From an uncultured virus (IMG/VR IMGVR_UViG_3300021255_000105) (taxonomy: Duplodnaviria; Heunggongvirae; Uroviricota; Caudoviricetes): 64,000 bases of DNA. Of the stretch, positions 6,051 through 59,291 are shown in pieces (within the stretch, counting starts at the first letter, position 1; each line of letters opens with the position of its first letter). The notes under the pieces are model-generated. The model made no database searches and was not told the DNA's origin. It saw only the letters and a program-made list of their open reading frames with translations. A program made the translations under genes and the position numbers. Where the stretch lies: IMG/VR virus record IMGVR_UViG_3300021255_000105, one strand, 5' to 3'.

Positions 6051-6136
6051 AACTCAAAGATTTGTAAAAGCCTCCCTGCATTTCGCAACGCAAGGGAGGC
6101 GGATTGTTTTGTCATAAAGGCCCCGCATTGGGGTTG

Positions 6137-6211
6137 TTGCTGGAGCCGGAGTCGAACCGGCAACCTTTGGAGTCAAAGTCCAACGCTCTAAACCATTTGC
6201 GCTATCCAGCA
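6137..6211 (-). tRNA. tRNA-Gln(TTG)
   Basis: Cloverleaf; anticodon arm TTGGA-CTTTGAC-TCCAA; GGTTCGACTCC T arm. Confidence 0.9.
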
Positions 6212-6284
6212 ATAGTGCCGAGGCTTGTATGCACCCCGGCGGGTGTATTGAGAGAGTTATTAAGAGAGTTATTAGAGGTGTTTG

Positions 6285-6366
6285 TGCCCGGGGAGGGACT
6301 CGAACCCTCACGCCGTATGGCAACGGCTCCTTAAACCGTTGTGTCTGCCAGTTCCACCACCCGGGC
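6285..6366 (-). tRNA. tRNA-Leu(AAG)
   Basis: Leu-type D arm and long variable arm; ACGGT-TTAAGGA-GCCGT gives AAG with G37. Confidence 0.85.
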
Positions 6367-6377
6367 AAAGTGATTTG

Positions 6378-6459
6378 TGGCCCCGGAGGGACTCGAACCC
6401 CCAATCCCGTAGGCGGCAAGGTTTGAGCTTGCCGTGTATGCCAATTCCACCACGGGGCC
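6378..6459 (-). tRNA. tRNA-Leu(CAA)
   Basis: GCAAG-CTCAAAC-CTTGC anticodon arm; long variable arm. Confidence 0.9.
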
Positions 6460-8043: not shown

Positions 8044-8074
8044 TTTGAAAAGCGGAAGGAAATCCCTAAATTTG
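8044..8074 (+). promoter_or_regulatory. Bacteroidetes sigma-A promoter for the repressor genes
   Basis: TTTG (8044) N19 TAAATTTG (8067). Confidence 0.7.
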
Positions 8075-8156
8075 CCGTAGGAACTATTGTAGGAGGCCGA
8101 TTTAGGGTTTCCCCGTCCGTTTTGTATCTCAAAGAACTTACTTACCAATCCGGATA

Positions 8157-8187
8157 CAAAGTTAGGGGAAAAAACCGAACTTCCAAA
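8157..8187 (-). promoter_or_regulatory. Bacteroidetes sigma-A promoter for the leftward operon
   Basis: TTTG N19 TAACTTTG on the minus strand. Confidence 0.7.
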
Positions 8188-8257: not shown

Positions 8258-8593
8258 ATGGATAACAACATTCAAAAACGGCTTCAGGAGGCCATAGAAG
8301 GCCTCTGCGAAGGAAACAAGTCAGAATTTTGCCGACGCATCGGAAAGGACGTATCAGCCCTAAAAGACATTCTTGGAGAAAAGCACAGCGCACCGGGGTA
8401 TGCCCTTTTGTTTGCAATCCTGTCCTCCGATTTGGGAATTTCCCCTAACTGGCTCATGCTTGGAGAGGGTCCCATGCTTTCGGGAAATAACCCCGCACCC
8501 GCCGGAAACGACGTGCATCACAACGTAGTAATAATTGGAAATCTTGGCGACCTGAAAGAAGTTGTCGCCGAGGCTATCCGCGAAAACAGATAG
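8258..8593 (+). CDS. XRE-type HTH repressor candidate (no peptidase domain)
   Basis: NKSEFCRRIG HTH and ISPNWLMLGEGPM motif typical of phage CI N-termini. Confidence 0.75.
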   Translation: MDNNIQKRLQEAIEGLCEGNKSEFCRRIGKDVSALKDILGEKHSAPGYALLFAILSSDLGISPNWLMLGEGPMLSGNNPAPAGNDVHHNVVIIGNLGDLKEVVAEAIRENR

Positions 8594-17155: not shown

Positions 17156-17974
17156 TTAGTCAGATAGTTTGCTCATTATAGCGGCGGTATTAAGCCCGCG
17201 CAGCTCATAAAACGATACTATCTTTTTTAGGTGCAGCCCGGCGTTTTTTGCGGCGGTATCGACGAGCCCGGCGTCGCTTATGGGTGAACCATGACCGATT
17301 GAAAAATAGAGGTTTTTCAAGCCCGGGGCCGTTTCAACGAACCGCAAAAAATGCCTTCTTAACATTGACGGGTTTACAAGTGGATAGGCCGTTTTTTTAA
17401 TGTCAAGATACTGCGCCGAGTCTTTGATTCTTACAAACATATTGCAAGTATCATAATGCCCGCCCCGGGCGCTGCATTTAGAACCGAAATAGACGTAAAG
17501 ATTAACTCTATATCCGTTTTTCTCGAGTCCCATGAGCGCCCCCATGAGGGCGGCGGCGGTATCTTTCAGCTCGTCGGCGCTTATATCATACGAGGCGCTG
17601 CCGTTATAACATACATTCAATACTTTACTATCTTTATATGTTACTTTTTCGGTGCGTATCATGGATTTAGGAAGGCCCATGAGGGCGGCCGGGACGCTCG
17701 CCGCGCCCCCGCAAACGGAGGCATATCGGCGTGTCCTGCGCCCCTCTCCGAGGGTTTTCACGCGGGCCGCAGTTGCCGTTTTCAGGGCGGCGGCGCTTTT
17801 TTCGTCCCCGTCCCGGAGCAGCACGTTTGCGGCTTCGTATGATTCCGTCCCGGTGAATTTTTCGGAGCCCGTAAAAGCGCCGCAATCGCGGCCCTTAAAA
17901 ACTTGATTTTCCGGGGCCGTATCAAGATACGCCCGGAGCCCGTCTAAATTGCTGAAGGTTTTTGTAATATCCAT
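17156..17974 (-). CDS. vWA-like partner of the AAA ATPase
   Basis: 272 aa; SVPAALMGLPKSM, LEKNGYRVNLY, NPSMLRR; adjacent to MoxR-type ATPase. Confidence 0.55.
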   Translation of the reverse strand: MDITKTFSNLDGLRAYLDTAPENQVFKGRDCGAFTGSEKFTGTESYEAANVLLRDGDEKSAAALKTATAARVKTLGEGRRTRRYASVCGGAASVPAALMGLPKSMIRTEKVTYKDSKVLNVCYNGSASYDISADELKDTAAALMGALMGLEKNGYRVNLYVYFGSKCSARGGHYDTCNMFVRIKDSAQYLDIKKTAYPLVNPSMLRRHFLRFVETAPGLKNLYFSIGHGSPISDAGLVDTAAKNAGLHLKKIVSFYELRGLNTAAIMSKLSD

Positions 17975-18032
17975 AACTCAAAAATTTAAGATTAGAACCC
18001 CGCCCCCGGTCCCCCGGGCGGCAGGATTTATG

Positions 18033-19160
18033 CTACATTGCAAGGGCAAAAACATTGTTTTTGTGAGTGAGCCCGGCGCGAAGTATGTTTATTTCGTCCC
18101 GGTCATAACCGCCCGTAATTGCAAGGGATACGGCCTCGGCGGTATCAATACCCGCCTTCATAAACTTTGCGAGGCGGGATATGTTACGATACCCGAGGAC
18201 GATATGCACCCCGGCCGCGGCGGCGCTTTTTCTCATGTCATAAATGAACTCGAGAATATCGGACCGCCCCCCGGCGAGGTTTTTCTCAATCCCGGCGCAA
18301 TAGTCGAACTGCATCGGGGTGAACCTATTAAGGGAGGAGGCGTCGATTACGCTGCGCCCGGTGTACATTTCATCAGCACCCCGGCCGCAGGTATTTCCGG
18401 CCGCGATACAATGAAAATCTTTGTGCATTTTTACGCGGCCCCCGGGGAAGGTGAAATATCCGTTAGCGAGGGCGGCGTTCAATGTTACCAACGTATCCGG
18501 GCAGGAGGCGTCGAGTTCATCAAGCATGAAAACGCCGCCCCGGGTGAAGGCCCGGTAAAATTCCGTTTCATGATAGCGCCCGGAGGCGTCAATAAAGCCC
18601 GTCAATTTAAATTCATCGGTTACGGAATTTTGATAATAAAATTCTAAACCGAGGGCGCGGGCTATTTGCTCACAAACGTAATTTTTCCCGGAGCCCGCGG
18701 GGCCGTAAAGATAGACGGACTCACCGAGCTGCATGAGCTGCAGCAGGCGGGCAAATTTATCATGTTTTACCTCGTTATCTTTGCGGGGTGCGGGTACGGG
18801 TGCGGGGGCCGGGACGGGTTCCGGCATGGGTGCGGGAGCGGGCTCGGGTGCAGGCGTATCTTTGCGGGCGCGGCGGGTTATGTTTTCGCGTATCTTTGCA
18901 TAAGCCTCGGACCCCTCAAAACATACATTTATAAGTTTTTCAGGACCGGACTCGGCGAGCATTGTAGCGGCGGCAGTTTCAGTCAGAACCCCGGAAAAAT
19001 CCCCGAGGCGATACATGAACTTCCAGCCGTACATGTTACCGAGTTTTGTGTTATTCCATGCAAGGGTATGAGAACCCAAAAACATAGAACCGGACTCGCA
19101 AATGATAGCGCTTTTTTTGCCGTTTACATAGCATTTAAGAATGTTTGCATTGTGTTTCAT
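18033..19160 (-). CDS. MoxR/CbbQ-like AAA+ ATPase
   Basis: Walker A GPAGSGKN, Walker B FMLDELD, AAGNT, DASSLNRF; Pro-Ala linker after N-domain. Confidence 0.88.
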   Translation of the reverse strand: MKHNANILKCYVNGKKSAIICESGSMFLGSHTLAWNNTKLGNMYGWKFMYRLGDFSGVLTETAAATMLAESGPEKLINVCFEGSEAYAKIRENITRRARKDTPAPEPAPAPMPEPVPAPAPVPAPRKDNEVKHDKFARLLQLMQLGESVYLYGPAGSGKNYVCEQIARALGLEFYYQNSVTDEFKLTGFIDASGRYHETEFYRAFTRGGVFMLDELDASCPDTLVTLNAALANGYFTFPGGRVKMHKDFHCIAAGNTCGRGADEMYTGRSVIDASSLNRFTPMQFDYCAGIEKNLAGGRSDILEFIYDMRKSAAAAGVHIVLGYRNISRLAKFMKAGIDTAEAVSLAITGGYDRDEINILRAGLTHKNNVFALAM

Positions 19161-22108: not shown

Positions 22109-23269
22109 ATGGTTTACTTCGACGGGCGGATATACGCGAAGATTAAGCGCGAAACGGACGTTTATGATATGCTGTGCAATATCCTTATGGATTCTGGTGC
22201 TCTTCCCAGCGACGTAAAGAAGGTCGGGAGTATAGTCTTGACCGTTATTGCCGAAAAGTCATACCCCGCGTCACCGTATATCGCCTTCTCTAACGGGATT
22301 CTCAATGCAAAGACAATGGACTGGTCGGAGGGTTTTAACCCCCAGCGCGTCGTAACGGAGTATCTTCCTTATGAGTACGACCCGGCCGCACTTTGTCCTC
22401 TTTGGGAGAAATTTCTTCTGGAGGTCATGCCCGAAGAAACGGAAAGAATGGTGCTTCAGGAGTTCTTTGGCATGGCGTATCTTGACCGGTCCGGCTTTTC
22501 CGTGGAGAAGTTTGCCGTCTTTATTGGAAAGGGCGCTAACGGAAAAAGCGTCATTTTTGACGTGATGAAAAAAGTTATCGGCGAGGAAAATATCTCTAAC
22601 CTTGATTCCCTACAACTCGCCGACGAAAAGATGCTCCCCTATGTTAAGGGCGCAAGGCTGAATTTCGCTCCCGACCTTGCCAGTCAAAAGGACTTTTCCT
22701 CGGCACTCAAAGCCCTCGCCTCGGGGCAGGACGTGACTGGGCGGAAAATCTACGGCGATGCGGAGAAAATCAAATGCCCTCCCCTTTGCTTTGCCATGAA
22801 CGAGTTTCCGCGCTTCCGGGACGTGACGGACGCCTTCTTTCGGCGGGTTCTTTTATTCAGTTTCGACGTCCAGATTCCTCCGCACCGGCAGGATAAGCGC
22901 CTTGCGGTGAAAATATGGGAGAAGGAACGCCCGGGCATAATGAACTGGATTCTTCAAGGGCGGTTCAGGCTGATTCGGAACAACGGCGAGTTTACCTACT
23001 CCGAAAAAATGGAGAAAAACCTGAATATCCTCCGGGGAAAGGTTCGCGGAGGCGGGGAATATCCCGTCAAGAATTTTTTGGAGTCCCGCGGGCTTTCGGT
23101 TTATCCGTCTTACGCGGGGCAGGTCCCAATCCTGATTTCCCGACAGGAGATTTACGACGGGCTCGGCGGAGCTGTTTCCGTGTACATGATTACACGCGAA
23201 CTGACCGCCTTCGGGATTCAGACGCAACGTAGTAAAGAAATGAAATATAAAGTATATGAGAAGATATAG
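22109..23269 (+). CDS. D5/P4-family primase-associated SF3 helicase
   Basis: FSNGIL, YDPAALCPLWEKFL, Walker A GKGANGKS, AFFRR; frame is open upstream to 21929. Confidence 0.88.
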   Translation: MVYFDGRIYAKIKRETDVYDMLCNILMDSGALPSDVKKVGSIVLTVIAEKSYPASPYIAFSNGILNAKTMDWSEGFNPQRVVTEYLPYEYDPAALCPLWEKFLLEVMPEETERMVLQEFFGMAYLDRSGFSVEKFAVFIGKGANGKSVIFDVMKKVIGEENISNLDSLQLADEKMLPYVKGARLNFAPDLASQKDFSSALKALASGQDVTGRKIYGDAEKIKCPPLCFAMNEFPRFRDVTDAFFRRVLLFSFDVQIPPHRQDKRLAVKIWEKERPGIMNWILQGRFRLIRNNGEFTYSEKMEKNLNILRGKVRGGGEYPVKNFLESRGLSVYPSYAGQVPILISRQEIYDGLGGAVSVYMITRELTAFGIQTQRSKEMKYKVYEKI

Positions 23270-23444: not shown

Positions 23445-24317
23445 ATGATTTTTCAGTTTTCGCCCATTCCCGAGGGCTTTTTCGGGGACAGCGGCTTGAC
23501 CGCAACTTCAGCGAATCATATCGCAAACCTCCTGAAGCTCCGCTATGAGCGGATTGAGAACGAGCTTAACTCGCTGAATTTCGTTACCGAACGTATGCAG
23601 GTAGTTGGCATGGATAAGGACGTTGTTATGAAAAAGGCACTCCTCTTCGATGCGGCCGGAATCAAGTCGAGGCTTGAAGAAGTTGCCATGTGCAAGGGCT
23701 TTATTGCGTTCCTCCGCGAGGCAATCAAGGAGAAAAAGCGCCTTACGGAGGAAATCGAGGACTATACGACACTGGAGTACCAGACTCTCATGGCAAACCA
23801 GCCAAGGCCGCAGCACCCTATCTCCGAAGAGGAAATCGTCAATGCAATGTCTATCGGCGACCGCGTGCGCTATCTTTCTAACGAGGCCCGGGCCGCTACG
23901 TTCGGGAAGTTTATTCATCCCGGAGGGACGCTGGCAACCGCCCGTAAGAGCGCTTTCGACGCATTTCAGGAGCCGACGAAGGTTGCAATGGCGGGCCGCG
24001 ATACCGTCTTTGTTCACCGCGAAAGCGCTGTTTCTCCCAACGAGATTGACTCGCTGATTTCCGACCTGCAGGCAGAGCACCGCAAGTCCGAGGCGGAGCT
24101 TAACGGCCTTAACCACGAAATCGACCAAACCCGCGTGCGTGATGCGCAGGACAAAATGGATAAGTTCCGCTCCGATAAGGATAGCTGGGATAAGGAAACC
24201 AGCCGCTTAAAGAGTGTTATCGACCAGACTCGCGTTGAACGCAGAAAGGTAATCGAAGAGCTTAAAATCGCCATTCCGAATAAATATCGGGACTTATACG
24301 AAACTATTAACGGATAA
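23445..24317 (+). CDS. coiled-coil hypothetical protein preceding a structured RNA
   Basis: 290 aa; FFGDSGLTATSANHIANL, AFLREAIKEK, AATFGKFIHPGG, LKIAIP. Confidence 0.75.
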   Translation: MIFQFSPIPEGFFGDSGLTATSANHIANLLKLRYERIENELNSLNFVTERMQVVGMDKDVVMKKALLFDAAGIKSRLEEVAMCKGFIAFLREAIKEKKRLTEEIEDYTTLEYQTLMANQPRPQHPISEEEIVNAMSIGDRVRYLSNEARAATFGKFIHPGGTLATARKSAFDAFQEPTKVAMAGRDTVFVHRESAVSPNEIDSLISDLQAEHRKSEAELNGLNHEIDQTRVRDAQDKMDKFRSDKDSWDKETSRLKSVIDQTRVERRKVIEELKIAIPNKYRDLYETING

Positions 24318-24358
24318 TCCGGGGCTGAAGGTTTATCCTGAAACCCGGACCAACGAGA

Positions 24359-24637
24359 GGGACGCATGTTCATTTTTTTCGATAGCGTAGTGCAGAGGTT
24401 AGCACGCCGGATTCACCCCGGAGGTCGTCGGTTCAAATCCGACCGCTATTATCATGAGCGCGTTTTTCGCTCGGCATTTAAACGATTTGGAGAATCGTTT
24501 GCACTTGAAATGCAACAAAAATGGCTCCGAACCCAAAACAATACAACCGCTCCGGCGGTATTGACGTTGCCTTTGTCCTTGACGGGCTCGGAGGTCCTTG
24601 CCTTTATCCTTGTCGTCGCCTTTGTAACATGCGTCCC
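24359..24637 (+). ncRNA. putative structured RNA closed by a 12-bp stem, containing a tRNA-like domain (24381-24451)
   Basis: GGGACGCATGTT (24359) pairs with AACATGCGTCCC (24626); several internal hairpins; 6-nt-periodic tracts. Confidence 0.7.
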
Positions 24638-24662
24638 AATCGGTCCAAACTTATAAAACTTT

Positions 24663-26370: not shown

Positions 26371-27107
26371 ACTTCCATAGGTTCAAAGAAATACTCCGGG
26401 TAGCACTGGCAACGAGGGTGAGGGCGCTCAAACGGAGTGGAGATAGGGATTTTCTTTCCGCAAAGCGAGTCGCACTCCGGGCAGTCGAAGGACGAGCCGC
26501 GGTGACGGATATAGTAAACCGCCCCTTGCGCCATAGCATCCACCCACTCGGCGTAGCGGGCCGAGTCTATAATCAGGTCCGCGCCGATTAGCGAGAGCTG
26601 GTTGTAGATATTGAAACTATATCCCGGCCCCCAGCCCATGCGCTTTATCCCGGCCTCTCGCCAAAGCGGGCAAAGAAACGGGTTATTGATATAGCGAGAA
26701 ATCAGCACCCGGAGATACCCTTGCGTGTAGTTTTTTGCAAGGGCGAGCCCCACCCAGACAGAAAGGAGGTCCAAAAGGTGCTCCCCGGCAAGGTCAAAGC
26801 TCATACCGGCATACTTTTCGGAAAGGGCCGTTTCAAAGGCCACCTCCTCGTCAGCATAGTCCAGCGAGTCGGTAATCAGCGTATAGGCAATCTTCCGCGC
26901 GTCCTCAATGCATCCGTCCGACAGCGCAACGCATTGGCGCAGGGCCTCTTTGTAGAGCGTTTCGTCGGCGTCAAAAGAGAAATCCGCGCCGAGGTGCTTA
27001 TACTTCCACGCCAGCTCCAGAAGAGCCGCCAGTGCGTCGTCATATCGCTTTTTCGACGCACCGGCGAACTCGTTTAGCGAGGCGTTTATCTTGTGGTGGC
27101 TAAGCAT
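26367..27107 (-). CDS. head morphogenesis protein (MuF/SPP1 gp7-like)
   Basis: C-terminal CPECDSLCG..PHPRCQC; downstream of portal. Confidence 0.7.
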   Translation of the reverse strand: MLSHHKINASLNEFAGASKKRYDDALAALLELAWKYKHLGADFSFDADETLYKEALRQCVALSDGCIEDARKIAYTLITDSLDYADEEVAFETALSEKYAGMSFDLAGEHLLDLLSVWVGLALAKNYTQGYLRVLISRYINNPFLCPLWREAGIKRMGWGPGYSFNIYNQLSLIGADLIIDSARYAEWVDAMAQGAVYYIRHRGSSFDCPECDSLCGKKIPISTPFERPHPRCQCYPEYFFEPMEV

Positions 27108-28605
27108 TGGCTCGGCTTGCGGTTACAGCGTTGTTCTTAATCTGTTGTGCGTTTATCTGCGCAGCGGCCACCGCGTCGTCATGGGCCTCCTGCAGGAGCC
27201 TGTTCACCTCGTCCGGGGAGGAGTAGCCAATGTTATAGGCGATTTCCGTTGCGGTCTTTTTAGACATAGCACCGGCGGCGACAAGTTGCTGAATACCAGA
27301 AATCACGTCGTTTTCGGAAAGGAAAATGAACGGGTCCAGATAGGCTTTTACTTTGAAGGAAGCAGTATCGCTTGCACGGTTTTCAGAGGTGAAGTAGGCG
27401 AACTTGAAGAGGCTTACAACCCCGTTCAGGAATTGCTGGTACTCGATAGAGTCCGAAAGGGCCTTCAGGTAAGAATCCGCAAAGAGCATCTTGACCGTCC
27501 GGGAGGACATATCAGCGCCGGATTTGATTTCTGGCGTTTCCACCGCGAAGGAGCCCCGCATGATATTCTTTTCCATGATTTCAAGCTGCTTTGCAAAAGC
27601 GCCGTCCGCGCCTTGTGCGGGCTCCAAGAATCCAACCTTTGCGTTCGGGTCGATAGAGTCAATACGATTGGGAGTGCCGTCCGTGTTTGTCATTACCTCC
27701 ATATCCCCGCCGAGGGTATAAAGAATCCTCAAAGCATAGGCAGCGTTGTTTTCGCTGAACTGCGAAATGCCGATTTCGTAACCGTCAATGATTCCCTGCG
27801 AGGCGGTCCAGACAGGGCCGGTGTCGCGGCGGTGGTAGCGAACGGGAATATCCGGGAAGCCGTGCTTTTTCGGCTCGCCTTCAAGCTCCCAGTCTTCGCC
27901 GTCCTCTTTCTTCTTATAAGTAGCAAACGAGGTGCGGTCGATTACGTCCAGATACTCGTGCTTATTCCCGTCCCAGTCCTCCTGAAAATACCGGCGGCCA
28001 AGAAGCGCCAGCTTGCCGGTCAGCGAGTCGTAGTGAGGATAGAGCGTGTCGCCGCGGTTGTAAGAGAATACCCTCCAGCCGGGTTTTCCCTCGTCAAGAT
28101 AGACATAAACAGCAACGTCGCCAATCTTGTAATCTTCCTCAATCGCATCGTTGATTGCTACCTCCATATCGTACTCTTCCCAGCCCTCGCGGAAGAAGGA
28201 AAGGGTATCAATCATTTTCTGGTTGGTTGCGCCGGAAATCAGCTTCATGCCGATATTGTTCCCCAGCAGGGCCTCTTTTCGCTTTGTCAGGATTCGCTCC
28301 TGAAAGCCGATTGCAATACGGCTTCGCACCTTTGCTTGATACGCGCCGGTTTCCTTATTAACATAAAGGGTATTCGGGTAGTATTTGAGGTGGTTAATCT
28401 TGTGCGAGGAGGGATAAAACTCACGGTAGAAGTCCGCTTGCGTGCGTAGTTCGTGCTGGACGTTATCAATCGTCTGGACGTAAGGAGCGGATGGGTTTAT
28501 AATCGGAGTCGTGCCAATGACTCCGGGAGGAATAGGAACGGAAAATGGCCTTTTCCGTAAGATTTGTTCGGGTTTCATGGCCCCGATAGACGGAGTAAGT
28601 TGCAT
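27100..28605 (-). CDS. portal protein
   Basis: 501 aa between terminase and MuF-like gene; SPP1-like portal features. Confidence 0.8.
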   Translation of the reverse strand: MQLTPSIGAMKPEQILRKRPFSVPIPPGVIGTTPIINPSAPYVQTIDNVQHELRTQADFYREFYPSSHKINHLKYYPNTLYVNKETGAYQAKVRSRIAIGFQERILTKRKEALLGNNIGMKLISGATNQKMIDTLSFFREGWEEYDMEVAINDAIEEDYKIGDVAVYVYLDEGKPGWRVFSYNRGDTLYPHYDSLTGKLALLGRRYFQEDWDGNKHEYLDVIDRTSFATYKKKEDGEDWELEGEPKKHGFPDIPVRYHRRDTGPVWTASQGIIDGYEIGISQFSENNAAYALRILYTLGGDMEVMTNTDGTPNRIDSIDPNAKVGFLEPAQGADGAFAKQLEIMEKNIMRGSFAVETPEIKSGADMSSRTVKMLFADSYLKALSDSIEYQQFLNGVVSLFKFAYFTSENRASDTASFKVKAYLDPFIFLSENDVISGIQQLVAAGAMSKKTATEIAYNIGYSSPDEVNRLLQEAHDDAVAAAQINAQQIKNNAVTASRANA

Positions 28606-28626: not shown

Positions 28627-30309
28627 TTAACTAAAAAAGCTCCAGTCGCCACGGCGCACGCGGCGCGTAGCCTTTGCATTGTCGGCCCGGTCCACCGCAT
28701 AGAGCAGGGCCTCGATAAAGTCCGGGGAGTGGCCCAGCAGGGCAATCATATCCTTCTTTTTAATCAGCGAGCGCGGGCTTTCATTTTCAATCCATTTCAG
28801 CACGATGCGCTCTTGCATGAGCCGCTCTTCGATAGTGAACGGCACGCGCTTATCCATAAAGACCCTCCGAAGCACGTTTTCCTCAATCGACATTTCGCCG
28901 TTCTGGATTTTCTCAATGAGAATACCGGCACATTCGGATTTGCGCTTTGTATACGCCGTTTTGTCCCGTGCCGGACCTTTGTTGTCAAACGCATGCGCCC
29001 GGCGCAGGTCCTCTGACTGACGGAGCCAGTTGCCTACTCCGTTCACGTCATAGGCGAAATCCTCCTCGGCCACCTCGTTGCGTTTGAGAAAAGCCTTGAT
29101 GCGAGGCACAACGTCCTCGGCGGTCACGTACTTTAACGCCTCTACGTCAATGATATGCCAGCCGTCCATAGCCCAAAGCACAAGCCAGTCACCACGAAGG
29201 GCAATATCGCCTCCGGCAACCCTGCGCCCGTTCGTTTGGGGTGCGTTTTGGAAAAACCGGTACATGTCCCCGGCGGTAATCAGCGCTCCCGTGTCGTCAA
29301 TGTCCCGCCAAACGCCCCTAATATCGTTTATAACGGCCTTTGAGCCGCCGGACGATATTCTGTTCATATATTTTGGGTCGGACGCTTGCAGAATCTTATT
29401 CTCTCCAAATTCACCGTCAATGAAAGTAAGCGAAGTGATGAACTCTTTGTAATCGCGGTCAGGGTTATCGGTAAGGGAACATATCTTGTTTCGGGCGTTG
29501 GGATTTCGGTACACTTCCTCCGGGGTGTCACCCCACGCGATTTCCGTAACGTCCTCTCCGTAACGGCAGAAGTAGCGAATCTTTCCAGAGCGGGCCGGTA
29601 TCGCCTCGTCCGTTTCGGGGTCAATCCACCAGTCCAGAAGCCAACGCAGTTTGTTTGATTTACCTACGGGGTTGCAGGTACAAATGAAACGAGCCGGGAG
29701 GCCGGTGGTTGAACGGTTGGAGCCCATGAGGTCAAATATCACGTTAAGATTATCCCTTGTGAACTCTGCCAGCTCCTCAATCACGATATAGGGCATTTCC
29801 GCGCCACGGAAACGGTCTTTTACGGCTTTCAGGTCCGCGAGGTGCTCCATTTTCATTGTAGCGCCCGTGCCGCCAAAGAACTTTGCTTCAAAAGAGGTGT
29901 CGGCAAAGGTCGCAAAGCCACGGAAGATAGGTTTGCAGGATTTCCAAATACCACGCTTTACGTCGTTTTCAAGGCGGCGAAAACCGTACATATTAACGTC
30001 GGGGTTTTCTGCGTAGTAAAGCGCACCCATAAGGCTTATGGCCGTTTTGCCAGCGCCACGTTTTCCTCCGCAAATGGTAATGTCGGCTTTACTGGTTAGC
30101 ACCTTTTCTTGAAAGCCCTCTTGCGGAATCAAATCCCAAATGCGTTTTCCGAGGCGCTTTTGCTCCAGATTTTCGTGCCGAATCTTTTGTGCGTACTCAT
30201 ACGAATACACCTCGACGCCATATTGGAGAAACACGGGGTCAAGGTACTGCTTATCGTCTATGACGGTTTGCTCGCTCATTCTTTTGCAAAGATTGTAATT
30301 TGTTTTCAA
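28627..30309 (-). CDS. terL: terminase large subunit (start may be 30279)
   Basis: GGKRGAGKT Walker A, IVIEELAEF Walker B, TCNP, nuclease GGDIA, YDVNGVG, HSPDFIEA. Confidence 0.93.
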   Translation of the reverse strand: MKTNYNLCKRMSEQTVIDDKQYLDPVFLQYGVEVYSYEYAQKIRHENLEQKRLGKRIWDLIPQEGFQEKVLTSKADITICGGKRGAGKTAISLMGALYYAENPDVNMYGFRRLENDVKRGIWKSCKPIFRGFATFADTSFEAKFFGGTGATMKMEHLADLKAVKDRFRGAEMPYIVIEELAEFTRDNLNVIFDLMGSNRSTTGLPARFICTCNPVGKSNKLRWLLDWWIDPETDEAIPARSGKIRYFCRYGEDVTEIAWGDTPEEVYRNPNARNKICSLTDNPDRDYKEFITSLTFIDGEFGENKILQASDPKYMNRISSGGSKAVINDIRGVWRDIDDTGALITAGDMYRFFQNAPQTNGRRVAGGDIALRGDWLVLWAMDGWHIIDVEALKYVTAEDVVPRIKAFLKRNEVAEEDFAYDVNGVGNWLRQSEDLRRAHAFDNKGPARDKTAYTKRKSECAGILIEKIQNGEMSIEENVLRRVFMDKRVPFTIEERLMQERIVLKWIENESPRSLIKKKDMIALLGHSPDFIEALLYAVDRADNAKATRRVRRGDWSFFS

Positions 30310-58923: not shown

Positions 58924-58997
58924 GGCCTTGTAGCTCTAACTGGCAGAGCAGTGCACTTTTAATGCACGGGTTGCGGGTTCAAATCCCGCCGGGGCCA
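58924..58997 (+). tRNA. tRNA-Lys(TTT)
   Basis: GTGCA-CTTTTAA-TGCAC anticodon arm; full cloverleaf. Confidence 0.92.
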
Positions 58998-59003
58998 CAA
59001 CAT

Positions 59004-59075
<72 letters not shown>

Positions 59076-59291
59076 CTAATCGGCTGGATTGGCTTGCAAC
59101 GCCATTCTGGCCGATTGTCATTAATTATAGGCGGTCTAAAACTTTACAAACGGCGGAGTAGACGCGCTGGCAAAGCGCTTTTTCGCCCGGCTCCAGCTCA
59201 TTTCCACCATACATTCTTGCGTCTAATATCCTCCTTGCCTCTTTCATAAGGTCTTGCACCTTGTAGAGGGTGTTAATTGTTTCTGGTGACA

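What the first reader, a model, noticed from the sequence alone, without database searches (positions are those of the whole stretch)
23445..24646. Coiled-coil protein followed by a closed structured RNA with 6-nt-periodic tracts
Seen: right after the stop codon comes a hairpin (24318-24349). A perfect 12-bp stem (24359-24370 with 24626-24637) then encloses a tRNA-like domain, three hairpins and a CTCCGA..CCC / GGG.TCGGAG stem. Two tracts flank the 3' strand of that stem with TTG recurring every 6 nt: 24561, 67, 73, 79, and 24598, (TTA) 604, 610, (TCG) 616, 622. No credible ORF covers the region. Inference: a protein-RNA module in which an oligomer of the upstream protein binds nine hexamer units, such as a TRAP-like ring or filament or a type III toxin-antitoxin-like pair. 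I do not recognise it as a named system.
Basis: partly seen in the sequence, partly recalled or inferred. Interest (0 to 1): 0.8.

Follow-up and report, generated by a model that had tools for sequence, protein, structure and literature searches.

The report
New RNA-protein pair in RNA repair
A gut phage carries an unknown protein followed by a folded RNA with six-base repeats; the pair recurs in phages and bacteria and shares a control switch with RNA-repair enzymes, so it is probably an undescribed RNA-protein particle that helps cells or phages survive attacks on their translation machinery.

Summary
Confirmed and extended. A 290-aa helical protein of no named family (1,193 relatives at the 50% level) is followed, at 235 of 236 loci, by a structured RNA: covarying stems P0-P3 and two tracts of a G-H-Y-H-U-H hexamer flanking P3's 3' strand. 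A tract pattern alone finds the gene upstream in 15 of 15 viral hits. RNA-library contigs from four studies cover 24320-24647 and almost nothing beside it. The tRNA is a clade-specific passenger. New here: (1) hexamer position 3 (C or U) follows protein residue 216 (Glu or Gln) at 94 of 97 loci, between invariant Arg213 and Asn220, as expected for direct read-out, though on only 1-2 evolutionary switches; (2) in Bacteroidales chromosomes the gene shares a WYL-type operator with rtcB, prfH and Thg1; in phages it lies near tRNA genes. Best reading: a Ro60/Y RNA-like, non-homologous particle of the RNA-damage response. Binding and function are inferred, not shown. Not VIPR, TRAP or type III TA. 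The scan noted this family before on other DNA (e1-6346167); ten paper searches found no description.

The parts
23445..24317 (+). Gene for a 290-aa helical protein of no named family: two helix / beta-hairpin / long-helix units plus a C-terminal helix and strand
   Evidence: ORF. No Pfam, PHROG or NCBIfam family; PADLOC gives only a 19.5-bit coiled-coil hit to LmuB in 1 of 6 members. AlphaFold2 pLDDT 87.9, pTM 0.80. 1,193 representatives at E<=1e-3.
24081..24104 (+). Codons for Arg213-x-x-Glu216-x-x-x-Asn220, the predicted RNA-reading helix face
   Evidence: Arg213 and Asn220 are invariant in 355 of 355 aligned rows. Residue 216 tracks hexamer position 3 at 94 of 97 loci. Contact is inferred, not shown.
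24309..24647 (+). Structured noncoding RNA, about 330-340 nt here; 181-366 nt in relatives
   Evidence: Conserved architecture. RNA-library contigs of 4 studies lie within 24320-24647 and stop at 24642-24647.
24312..24646 (+). P0: outermost pairing, 24312-24314 with 24644-24646. 3 bp here, 6-7 bp in close relatives; overlaps the last codon
   Evidence: Pair table on the 8-sequence alignment A4; weak in this window.
24318..24349 (+). P1 hairpin with a CUGA (24325-24328) / GAAA (24340-24343) internal loop
   Evidence: Fold. Compensatory changes. Motif in 33 of 100 representatives vs 7 of 99 control segments.
24354..24642 (+). P2 closing stem: 24354-24356 / 24640-24642 and 24359-24370 / 24626-24637
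   Evidence: Perfect 12 bp. A compensatory change in L001. Own 5' and 3' arms pair better than all 70 foreign arms in 30 of 71 representatives. 22 of 23 predicted P1/P2 pairs show two-sided changes in 16 relatives.
24381..24451 (+). Inserted tRNA gene with a shortened, non-canonical anticodon loop (passenger)
   Evidence: Rfam 57.2 bits. A whole tRNA lies inside the RNA in only 1 of 70 representatives, this one. Relatives carry other anticodon loops.
24456..24514 (+). Three small hairpins, probably a decayed tRNA-arm-like domain
   Evidence: Fold. L002 and L003 have D-, anticodon- and T-arm-like hairpins without an acceptor stem at this place (read by eye).
24525..24593 (+). P3 stem, 24525-24534 with 24584-24593; its 3' strand separates the two tracts
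   Evidence: Helix score >=16 in 77% of 100 representatives vs 7% with foreign 3' strands; most positions show 4-6 pair types.
24557..24581 (+). Hexamer tract 1 (four units plus a final G; 2-4 units in relatives)
24594..24625 (+). Hexamer tract 2 (five units plus a partial one; 4-5 units in 89 of 100 representatives)

Best explanation
A two-part ribonucleoprotein module of the RNA-damage response. It works like Ro60/Rsr with Y RNA but is built from unrelated parts. Gene and RNA are made as one transcript (inferred from order and one bridging contig), and the RNA is released as a stable species closed by P0/P2 (presence in RNA libraries shown; ends only hinted). Several copies of the protein bind the 6-9 G-H-Y-H-U-H units, one site per unit, through the Arg213/Glu-or-Gln216/Asn220 helix face, with P3 holding the two tracts in register (inferred from covariation). 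The particle acts when tRNA or rRNA is cut by host or rival nucleases, most likely as a platform that holds damaged RNA for RtcB-type ligation or shields it, or as a nuclease decoy (inferred from regulon and neighbours; the biochemical step is not shown). Bacteroidales induce it through a WYL regulator together with rtcB/prfH; phages carry it beside their tRNA genes. My odds: real RNP about 0.85; role in RNA-damage or translation stress about 0.65; the whole statement about 0.5.
For: Gene to RNA: two-tract architecture at 235 of 236 loci with enough sequence (loci include near-duplicates). At least 4 units in 68 of 71 representatives at 70% identity, vs 46 of 1,420 shuffles and 0 of 71 in-gene controls. 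RNA to gene: strict pattern, 15 of 15 viral hits have a homolog upstream on the same strand, 7 of them in a distant clade not used to make the pattern; metagenomes, 58 of 80 examined. Structure. G-U outnumbers A-C 49:12 in P3 and 74:19 in P2, and plus folds better in 86 of 100. Presence in RNA libraries. Read-out: C/U at unit position 3 is concerted within an RNA (dispersion 3.39, P 1e-27; other positions 1.1-1.55) and independent of GC3 (rho -0.11; others +0.33 to +0.47). Glu goes with C at 33 loci and Gln with U at 61, with 3 exceptions of 97; by units, Glu C156/U48 and Gln C30/U332. This fits carboxylate-cytosine and amide-uracil hydrogen bonding (own knowledge). Regulon: a WYL-WCX gene lies near 15 of 80 bacterial loci and 0 of 160 viral ones. 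Of 25 operator matches in 10 genomes, 20 have one geometry: 10 precede this gene, 8 precede rtcB or rtcB/prfH, 1 an AAA ATPase divergent from rtcB, 1 an unknown gene. The strict palindrome also precedes rtcB-prfH twice and tRNA plus Thg1 once. L158 reads WYL, rtcB, this gene, RNA. L036 carries it with RtcB. tRNA within -2/+1.5 kb in 24 of 47 viral representatives.
Against: No binding, stoichiometry or phenotype is shown. The residue-base link rests on few events: the best tree needs 2 switches (SH-aLRT 98-99), but one switch is not rejected (AU p 0.241), and residue 86 (Phe/Leu) tracks almost as well. WYL control is inferred from palindromes. It is absent in front of the window's gene and the strict or relaxed site is seen at only 14 or 24 of 80 bacterial loci. 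The second operator type (16 matches, 5 genomes) precedes DUF6847, WYL and an ADP-ribosylglycohydrolase operon but no rtcB. RtcB lies within the fetched flanks at only 5 loci, from 2 independent neighbourhoods. Tracts are not predicted unpaired without protein (mean pairing 0.44 and 0.60). RNA evidence is contigs without strand, and no DNA run was laid beside them. The tract pattern was first drawn from the loci counted. The tRNA proximity count has no background control.
Confidence: 0.5

Rival explanations
1. Toxin held by an RNA antitoxin or sensor: the RNA sequesters the protein, and cleavage or loss of the RNA frees it to stop growth (type III TA-like logic, new parts).
For: Tight one-to-one linkage. 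Residue-base covariation fits any tight binding. WYL regulators often control defence genes (search listing).
Against: No toxin family. The RNA lies downstream as one unit, not as upstream tandem repeats. L031 keeps an apparently intact gene but has lost the tracts (one case). Co-regulation is with repair enzymes.
Confidence: 0.17
2. tmRNA-like rescue: tract 2 is an mRNA-like domain without a start codon, read by stalled or damaged ribosomes to add a hydrophobic tag, with the protein as the SmpB-like partner.
For: The frame starting at tract 2 gives alternating hydrophobic residues and lacks stops: 2 seen vs 16.3 expected over codons 8-13 in 100 RNAs, while the other frames are not depleted; 5 vs 21.9 in the five codons after the partial unit. 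Co-regulated with prfH. tmRNA is nearby in 2 of 47 viral representatives.
Against: Synonymous position 3 is locked (GTY 188, GTR 1; GCY 97, GCR 1) and changes far more slowly than non-synonymous positions 2 and 4 (0.15 vs 0.61 and 0.54 at 50-70% protein identity). Tract 1 has the same pattern but is out of frame for linkers of 13 or 14 nt (52 of 71). No tRNA-like acceptor/T-arm domain at the ends. The depletion fades by codons 2-7 after the tract (17 vs 22.8, P 0.12).
Confidence: 0.12
3. The RNA is a cis-acting 3' element through which the protein controls its own mRNA, or a selfish stable RNA, with no role in repair.
For: Always directly behind the gene; P0 overlaps the last codon; patchy spread (1 of 401 and 5 of 57 genomes); no conserved downstream gene.
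Against: The RNA is found in RNA libraries where the gene is nearly uncovered. Specific co-regulation with rtcB/prfH. It is large and tolerates whole-tRNA insertions.
Confidence: 0.12
4. VIPR-like programmable guide: the variable positions 2, 4 and 6 spell a target by a skip code.
For: Fixed and variable positions alternate, as in vrRNA (10.64898/2026.04.26.720920, parts 1-2 of 6 read).
Against: Variable positions change at about half the four-fold synonymous rate (0.109 vs 0.208 at 85-95% identity), follow genome GC and nearly exclude G. One copy in the window. The model is helical, with no RRM-type sheet.
Confidence: 0.04

Closest known systems
Ro60/Rsr with Y RNA (YrlA/YrlB) in rsr-yrlBA-rtcBA operons (PMC7790460, passages read)
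   Same: RNA-binding protein gene with a noncoding RNA closed by a 5'/3' stem; tied to RtcB and to a ligand-sensing regulator; sometimes tRNA-like parts. A ROT/TROVE protein is also reported in a few jumbo phages (PMC7824862, passages).
   Different: No TROVE domain; no Y RNA match; the regulator is WYL-WCX, not RtcR (CARF); binding is to 6-9 hexamer units rather than one stem; a tRNA part occurs only in one clade.
DIP1984 / DUF6847 (PF20935, NF038048; PDB 3KDQ) with downstream periodic RNAs
   Same: Helical-hairpin protein followed by an apparently conserved RNA (seen by eye; earlier scan notes). Shares operator type B and one operon (L036). Its C-terminal helix aligns Arg with Arg213 and an acidic residue with position 216.
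   Different: About 150 vs 290 aa. The profile match covers only about 30-35 columns (P 0.001-0.02, probability at most 22%). Different RNA, with a reported 7-nt period. Homology unproven.
VIPR (Vipr plus vrRNA; 10.64898/2026.04.26.720920, parts 1-2 of 6 read)
   Same: Phage-borne protein with an RNA of short periodic units that alternate fixed and variable bases.
   Different: Hexamer instead of GGY/NN pentamer; variable bases are not hypervariable; single RNA; protein model not RAMP-like.
tmRNA-SmpB, TRAP and type III toxin-antitoxin systems (features recalled, not from a call)
   Same: Closed RNA with an internal stop-poor frame (tmRNA); oligomer on periodic single-stranded RNA (TRAP); protein-RNA pair (type III TA).
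   Different: No Rfam or Pfam match to any of them; defining parts missing (see membership tests).

Membership tests
Ro60/Rsr - Y RNA | TROVE/ROT domain protein | tested here: not met
   No Pfam or NCBIfam hit; TROVE not found in 5 carrier genomes searched (incomplete genomes).
Ro60/Rsr - Y RNA | RNA matches a Y RNA family | tested here: not met
   Rfam gives only tRNA in the window and only tRNA/tmRNA genes in 9 related loci.
Ro60/Rsr - Y RNA | Linked to RtcB RNA repair genes | tested here: met
   Shared operator and operons.
Ro60/Rsr - Y RNA | RNP tethers PNPase or acts on damaged RNA | not testable with these tools
   Needs biochemistry.
VIPR | RAMP/RRM-type protein | tested here: not met
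   The model (pLDDT 87.9) is long helices with two beta-hairpins and no four-stranded sheet.
VIPR | GGY/NN pentamer repeats with hypervariable NN | tested here: not met
   Hexamer unit; variable sites slower than synonymous sites.
Type III toxin-antitoxin (ToxIN, CptIN, TenpIN) | Toxin of a known type III family | tested here: not met
Type III toxin-antitoxin (ToxIN, CptIN, TenpIN) | Toxicity neutralised by the RNA | not testable with these tools
   Needs expression tests.
TRAP (MtrB) | Small beta-sandwich subunit binding (G/U)AG triplets | tested here: not met
   Helical 290-aa model; unit is G-H-Y-H-U-H. TRAP features recalled.
tmRNA | Rfam tmRNA match or terminal tRNA-like domain | tested here: not met
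tmRNA | Internal tag reading frame | tested here: inconclusive
   Stop depletion in one frame, but codon pattern and rates point to a base-level constraint.
DIP1984 / DUF6847 | PF20935 or NF038048 match | tested here: not met
DIP1984 / DUF6847 | Remote homology by profile or fold | tested here: inconclusive
   Weak local profile match in the same place in each comparison; reversed controls P 0.019-0.54. Fold searches gave only generic helical matches.

The most novel reading that the evidence does not exclude
A new class of RNA-repair or ribosome-rescue particle. A helical protein polymerises on a hexamer-periodic RNA, reads one base of each unit through a single Glu/Gln switch (a programmable RNA-binding code), and serves as the Ro60/Y RNA substitute in Bacteroidales and their phages. 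In the boldest form, tract 2 is also presented to damaged ribosomes as a start-less message, and DIP1984 modules are a 7-nt-period sister branch of one superfamily.
Probability: 0.3. Interest if true: 0.92.

Novelty: categorically new. Interest (0 to 1): 0.82.

Why it matters
It would add a widespread, undescribed RNP to the RNA-repair conflict between gut phages (including large contigs of about 100-350 kb) and Bacteroidales. It would give a function to a family of more than 1,000 protein clusters with no name, reveal a WYL-controlled RtcB/PrfH regulon, and offer a simple, testable one-residue/one-base recognition rule on periodic RNA. Named carriers exist (Prevotella sp. 885, L097; Muribaculaceae Isolate-036, L116), and the module is only about 1.2 kb, so it can be tested directly.

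Tried and rejected
Complex prediction of three protein copies: no verdict (score 0.21, mark 0.42), used neither way. Fold searches: PDB by Foldseek, none at E<=1e-3 (top rows ClyA/MakE at TM about 0.2); VIA-align best Z 6.9 for the whole model and 8.3 for residues 126-232, all generic helices, 3KDQ not among the 50 rows shown; BFVD, one uncharacterised homolog. ESM Atlas: nothing at 0.9 or above. PDB sequences: none. Hammerhead ribozyme: CUGA and GAAA are present, but the flanking arms pair with each other, so there is no three-way core (own reading; no Rfam hit). Selenocysteine or UGA-suppressor tRNA: loop non-canonical, and TGA ends 6 of 29 long ORFs. Coding on the antisense strand: Ile only as ATA (48 vs 1 ATT), Arg only as AGR. 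Misses of the loose tract pattern (15 of 44 viral; 10 of 80 metagenomic, plus 12 too short) look by eye like simple repeats, with no second partner protein seen. Covariance model not built. Independent test of the Glu/Gln rule: further switches exist among proteins without DNA (8 changes on a 355-row tree), but no loci were found for three of them, and genome searches gave no new clade. DUF6847 not found in 81 and 61 Bacteroidia genomes sampled. No whole genome is held for the window. Paper searches with no description of this module. PMC5062991 (RNA repair survey) is not held and could mention the family; no supplements were read, and large RNA-motif catalogues in supplements could list it.

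Full report
Setting. The window is a tailed-phage sequence: D5-type primase at 22109-23269, portal at 27100-28605, terminase at 28627-30309. No whole genome is held. Relatives are present in sheep and cattle gut RNA libraries. The host is not known: bacterial carriers of the family are mostly Bacteroidales, and one 76%-identical protein is labelled Fibrobacter.

Observation. The enclosed tRNA-like part is a full tRNA gene with a damaged anticodon loop. A 96-aa ORF over the RNA exists but is frameshifted in L001.

The protein. It has no family in Pfam, PHROGs or NCBIfam, and only a weak coiled-coil hit in PADLOC. The family is large: 1,193 representatives at E<=1e-3 and 645 at 1e-30. The model is confident (pLDDT 87.9) and shows two units of helix, beta-hairpin and long helix. 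Arg213 and Asn220 are invariant in 355 of 355 rows; Glu92, Gly154 and Ile275 in 189 of 189. Among bacteria it is patchy: 1 of 401 genomes of the class (the centre itself) and 5 of 57 in one family.

The RNA family. I fetched 240 loci (with repeats), which with the window give 72 representatives at 70% protein identity; 71 had 450 nt downstream. At least four G-N-Y-N-T-N units in a two-tract layout occur in 68 of 71, against 46 of 1,420 shuffles and 0 of 71 in-gene stretches. Over all loci, 235 of 236 score above 10; L031 is the exception. The unit is G-H-Y-H-U-H, with entropies 0.46, 1.70, 0.89, 1.57, 0.16 and 1.46 bits; the linker is 12-15 nt in 67 of 71. Because the pattern came from these loci, I tested the converse. 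The strict pattern matched 15 viral stretches and all 15 have a homolog ending 131-282 nt upstream, 7 of them in a distant clade. The loose pattern gave 28 of 44. Metagenomes gave 58 of the 80 examined (84 found), with 12 too short and 10 without the gene; by eye the misses are mostly simple repeats. Adding 31 new representatives, and leaving out L010, L031 and the truncated L112, gave the 100-row set used below.

Structure and strand. P3 scores >=16 in 77% of RNAs vs 7% with foreign strands, with many pair types per position. In 16 relatives, 22 of 23 predicted pairs change on both sides. G-U exceeds A-C (49:12 in P3, 74:19 in P2) and plus folds better in 86 of 100, although this window's minus strand folds better. 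The tracts are not predicted free without protein. A whole tRNA lies inside the RNA in 1 of 70 representatives and within 250 nt behind it in 13.

Expression. In four RNA libraries from four studies, 10 of 12 laid contigs lie within 24320-24647. One spans the gene end into P1 (24177-24335) and one is a 35-nt foreign match. The 3'-most contigs stop at 24642-24647, one of them against adapter. Neighbouring genes are uncovered. Contigs give no strand or level and no DNA run was laid, so this is presence plus a weak hint of ends.

Evidence for direct read-out. Position 3 is C or U in concert across an RNA's units (dispersion 3.39; other positions 1.1-1.55) and ignores genome GC, unlike positions 2, 4 and 6. 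Scanning all 290 columns on 97 loci (3 short proteins left out), residue 216 is the best match: Glu/C 33, Gln/U 61, Ser 2, Glu/U 1. It lies on the helix face of Arg213 and Asn220. Limits: the label changes about 4 times on the 97-row quick tree and twice on a 49-row subset, a single change is not rejected (AU p 0.241), and residue 86 co-varies too. Attempts to get loci for further switches failed.

Not a guide, probably not a message. Variable positions change more slowly than four-fold sites in all four identity bins, unlike the hypervariable NN of vrRNA. One frame of tract 2 is short of stops, which I cannot fully explain. But synonymous third positions are the locked ones, and tract 1 is usually out of frame.

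Function by context. The most recurrent neighbour is a WYL-WCX regulator (6 of 100 representatives; 15 of 80 bacterial and 0 of 160 viral loci). A palindrome sits just before a Bacteroidota-type -7 element (name recalled) in front of the gene. Its strict form has 8 sites in 5 genomes: 5 at this gene, 2 at rtcB-prfH, 1 at a tRNA plus Thg1. The relaxed form has 25 matches in 10 genomes (reversed control: 6). Twenty share one geometry: 10 at this gene (by choice of genomes), 8 at rtcB or rtcB/prfH, 1 at an AAA ATPase divergent from rtcB, 1 at an unknown gene; the 5 off-geometry matches look like chance. A second operator type has 16 matches in 5 genomes (control 0): 5 at this gene, 2 at probable truncated paralogs, 2 at DUF6847, 2 at WYL, 1 at an ADP-ribosylglycohydrolase operon, 4 unknown (three assignments rest on identical sites at contig ends or broken genes); none at rtcB. 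L158 is WYL-rtcB-gene-RNA; L036 is DUF6847-...-gene-RNA-...-rtcB. In phages, 24 of 47 representatives have a tRNA within -2/+1.5 kb (no background control). In Salmonella the RtcB operon holds Rsr and Y RNA and answers to cut tRNA (PMC7790460, passages); PrfH with RtcB repairs damaged ribosomes (PMC9304027, search listing only); jumbo phages use tRNAs, ligases and sometimes TROVE proteins against such attacks (PMC7824862, passages). TROVE was not found in 5 carrier genomes searched. The window's own gene has no operator.

Verdict. Shown: a conserved gene-RNA pair, its structure, presence in RNA libraries, a residue-base correlation and shared upstream sites with repair genes. Inferred: binding, oligomer, WYL control and a protective role. 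It works most like Ro60/Y RNA but fails membership; a link to DUF6847 is weak. Ten paper searches found no description; subscription papers and supplements were not seen.

Noticed in passing
L385-L391 (e.g. L387:1957-2200 +) and L036:1517-1730: DIP1984/DUF6847 genes are followed by an apparently conserved RNA-like stretch ending in a shared G-rich motif; in L433 and apparently L036 the gene sits behind the type B operator.
   Followed up: partly
L395, L398, L402, L406, L410-L412, L421, L422: A WYL-WCX-type regulon of one or two rtcB paralogs and prfH in Muribaculaceae/Bacteroidales, with a 35-nt operator-promoter geometry; not found described in searches.
   Followed up: partly
L397:1540-1630 and L117: The operator drives a tRNA-like gene with an 8-nt anticodon loop, followed by Thg1.
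   Followed up: no
L023:1676-2541: Two tRNAs and a tmRNA lie directly upstream of the gene, and a tRNA with a shrunken anticodon loop follows the RNA.
   Followed up: partly
L031 downstream of 3880: Gene apparently intact, but the RNA keeps only its 5' part and has lost both tracts.
   Followed up: partly
window 6136-6459 (-) and 58924-59076 (+): Five further tRNA genes (Gln, Leu, Leu; Lys, Met), including tRNA-Leu with anticodon AAG.
   Followed up: no
window 17156-19160 (-): AAA_5 ATPase followed by a DUF7192 gene.
   Followed up: no
window 8044-8187: Divergent Bacteroidota-type promoter matches in front of a small gene at 8258; the 12-bp inverted repeat at 8160/8439 is probably chance.
   Followed up: no
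L441:3915-4091 (PQ006092.1): The record annotates a short hypothetical CDS where the RNA is expected, so the RNA may be hidden under spurious gene calls.
   Followed up: no
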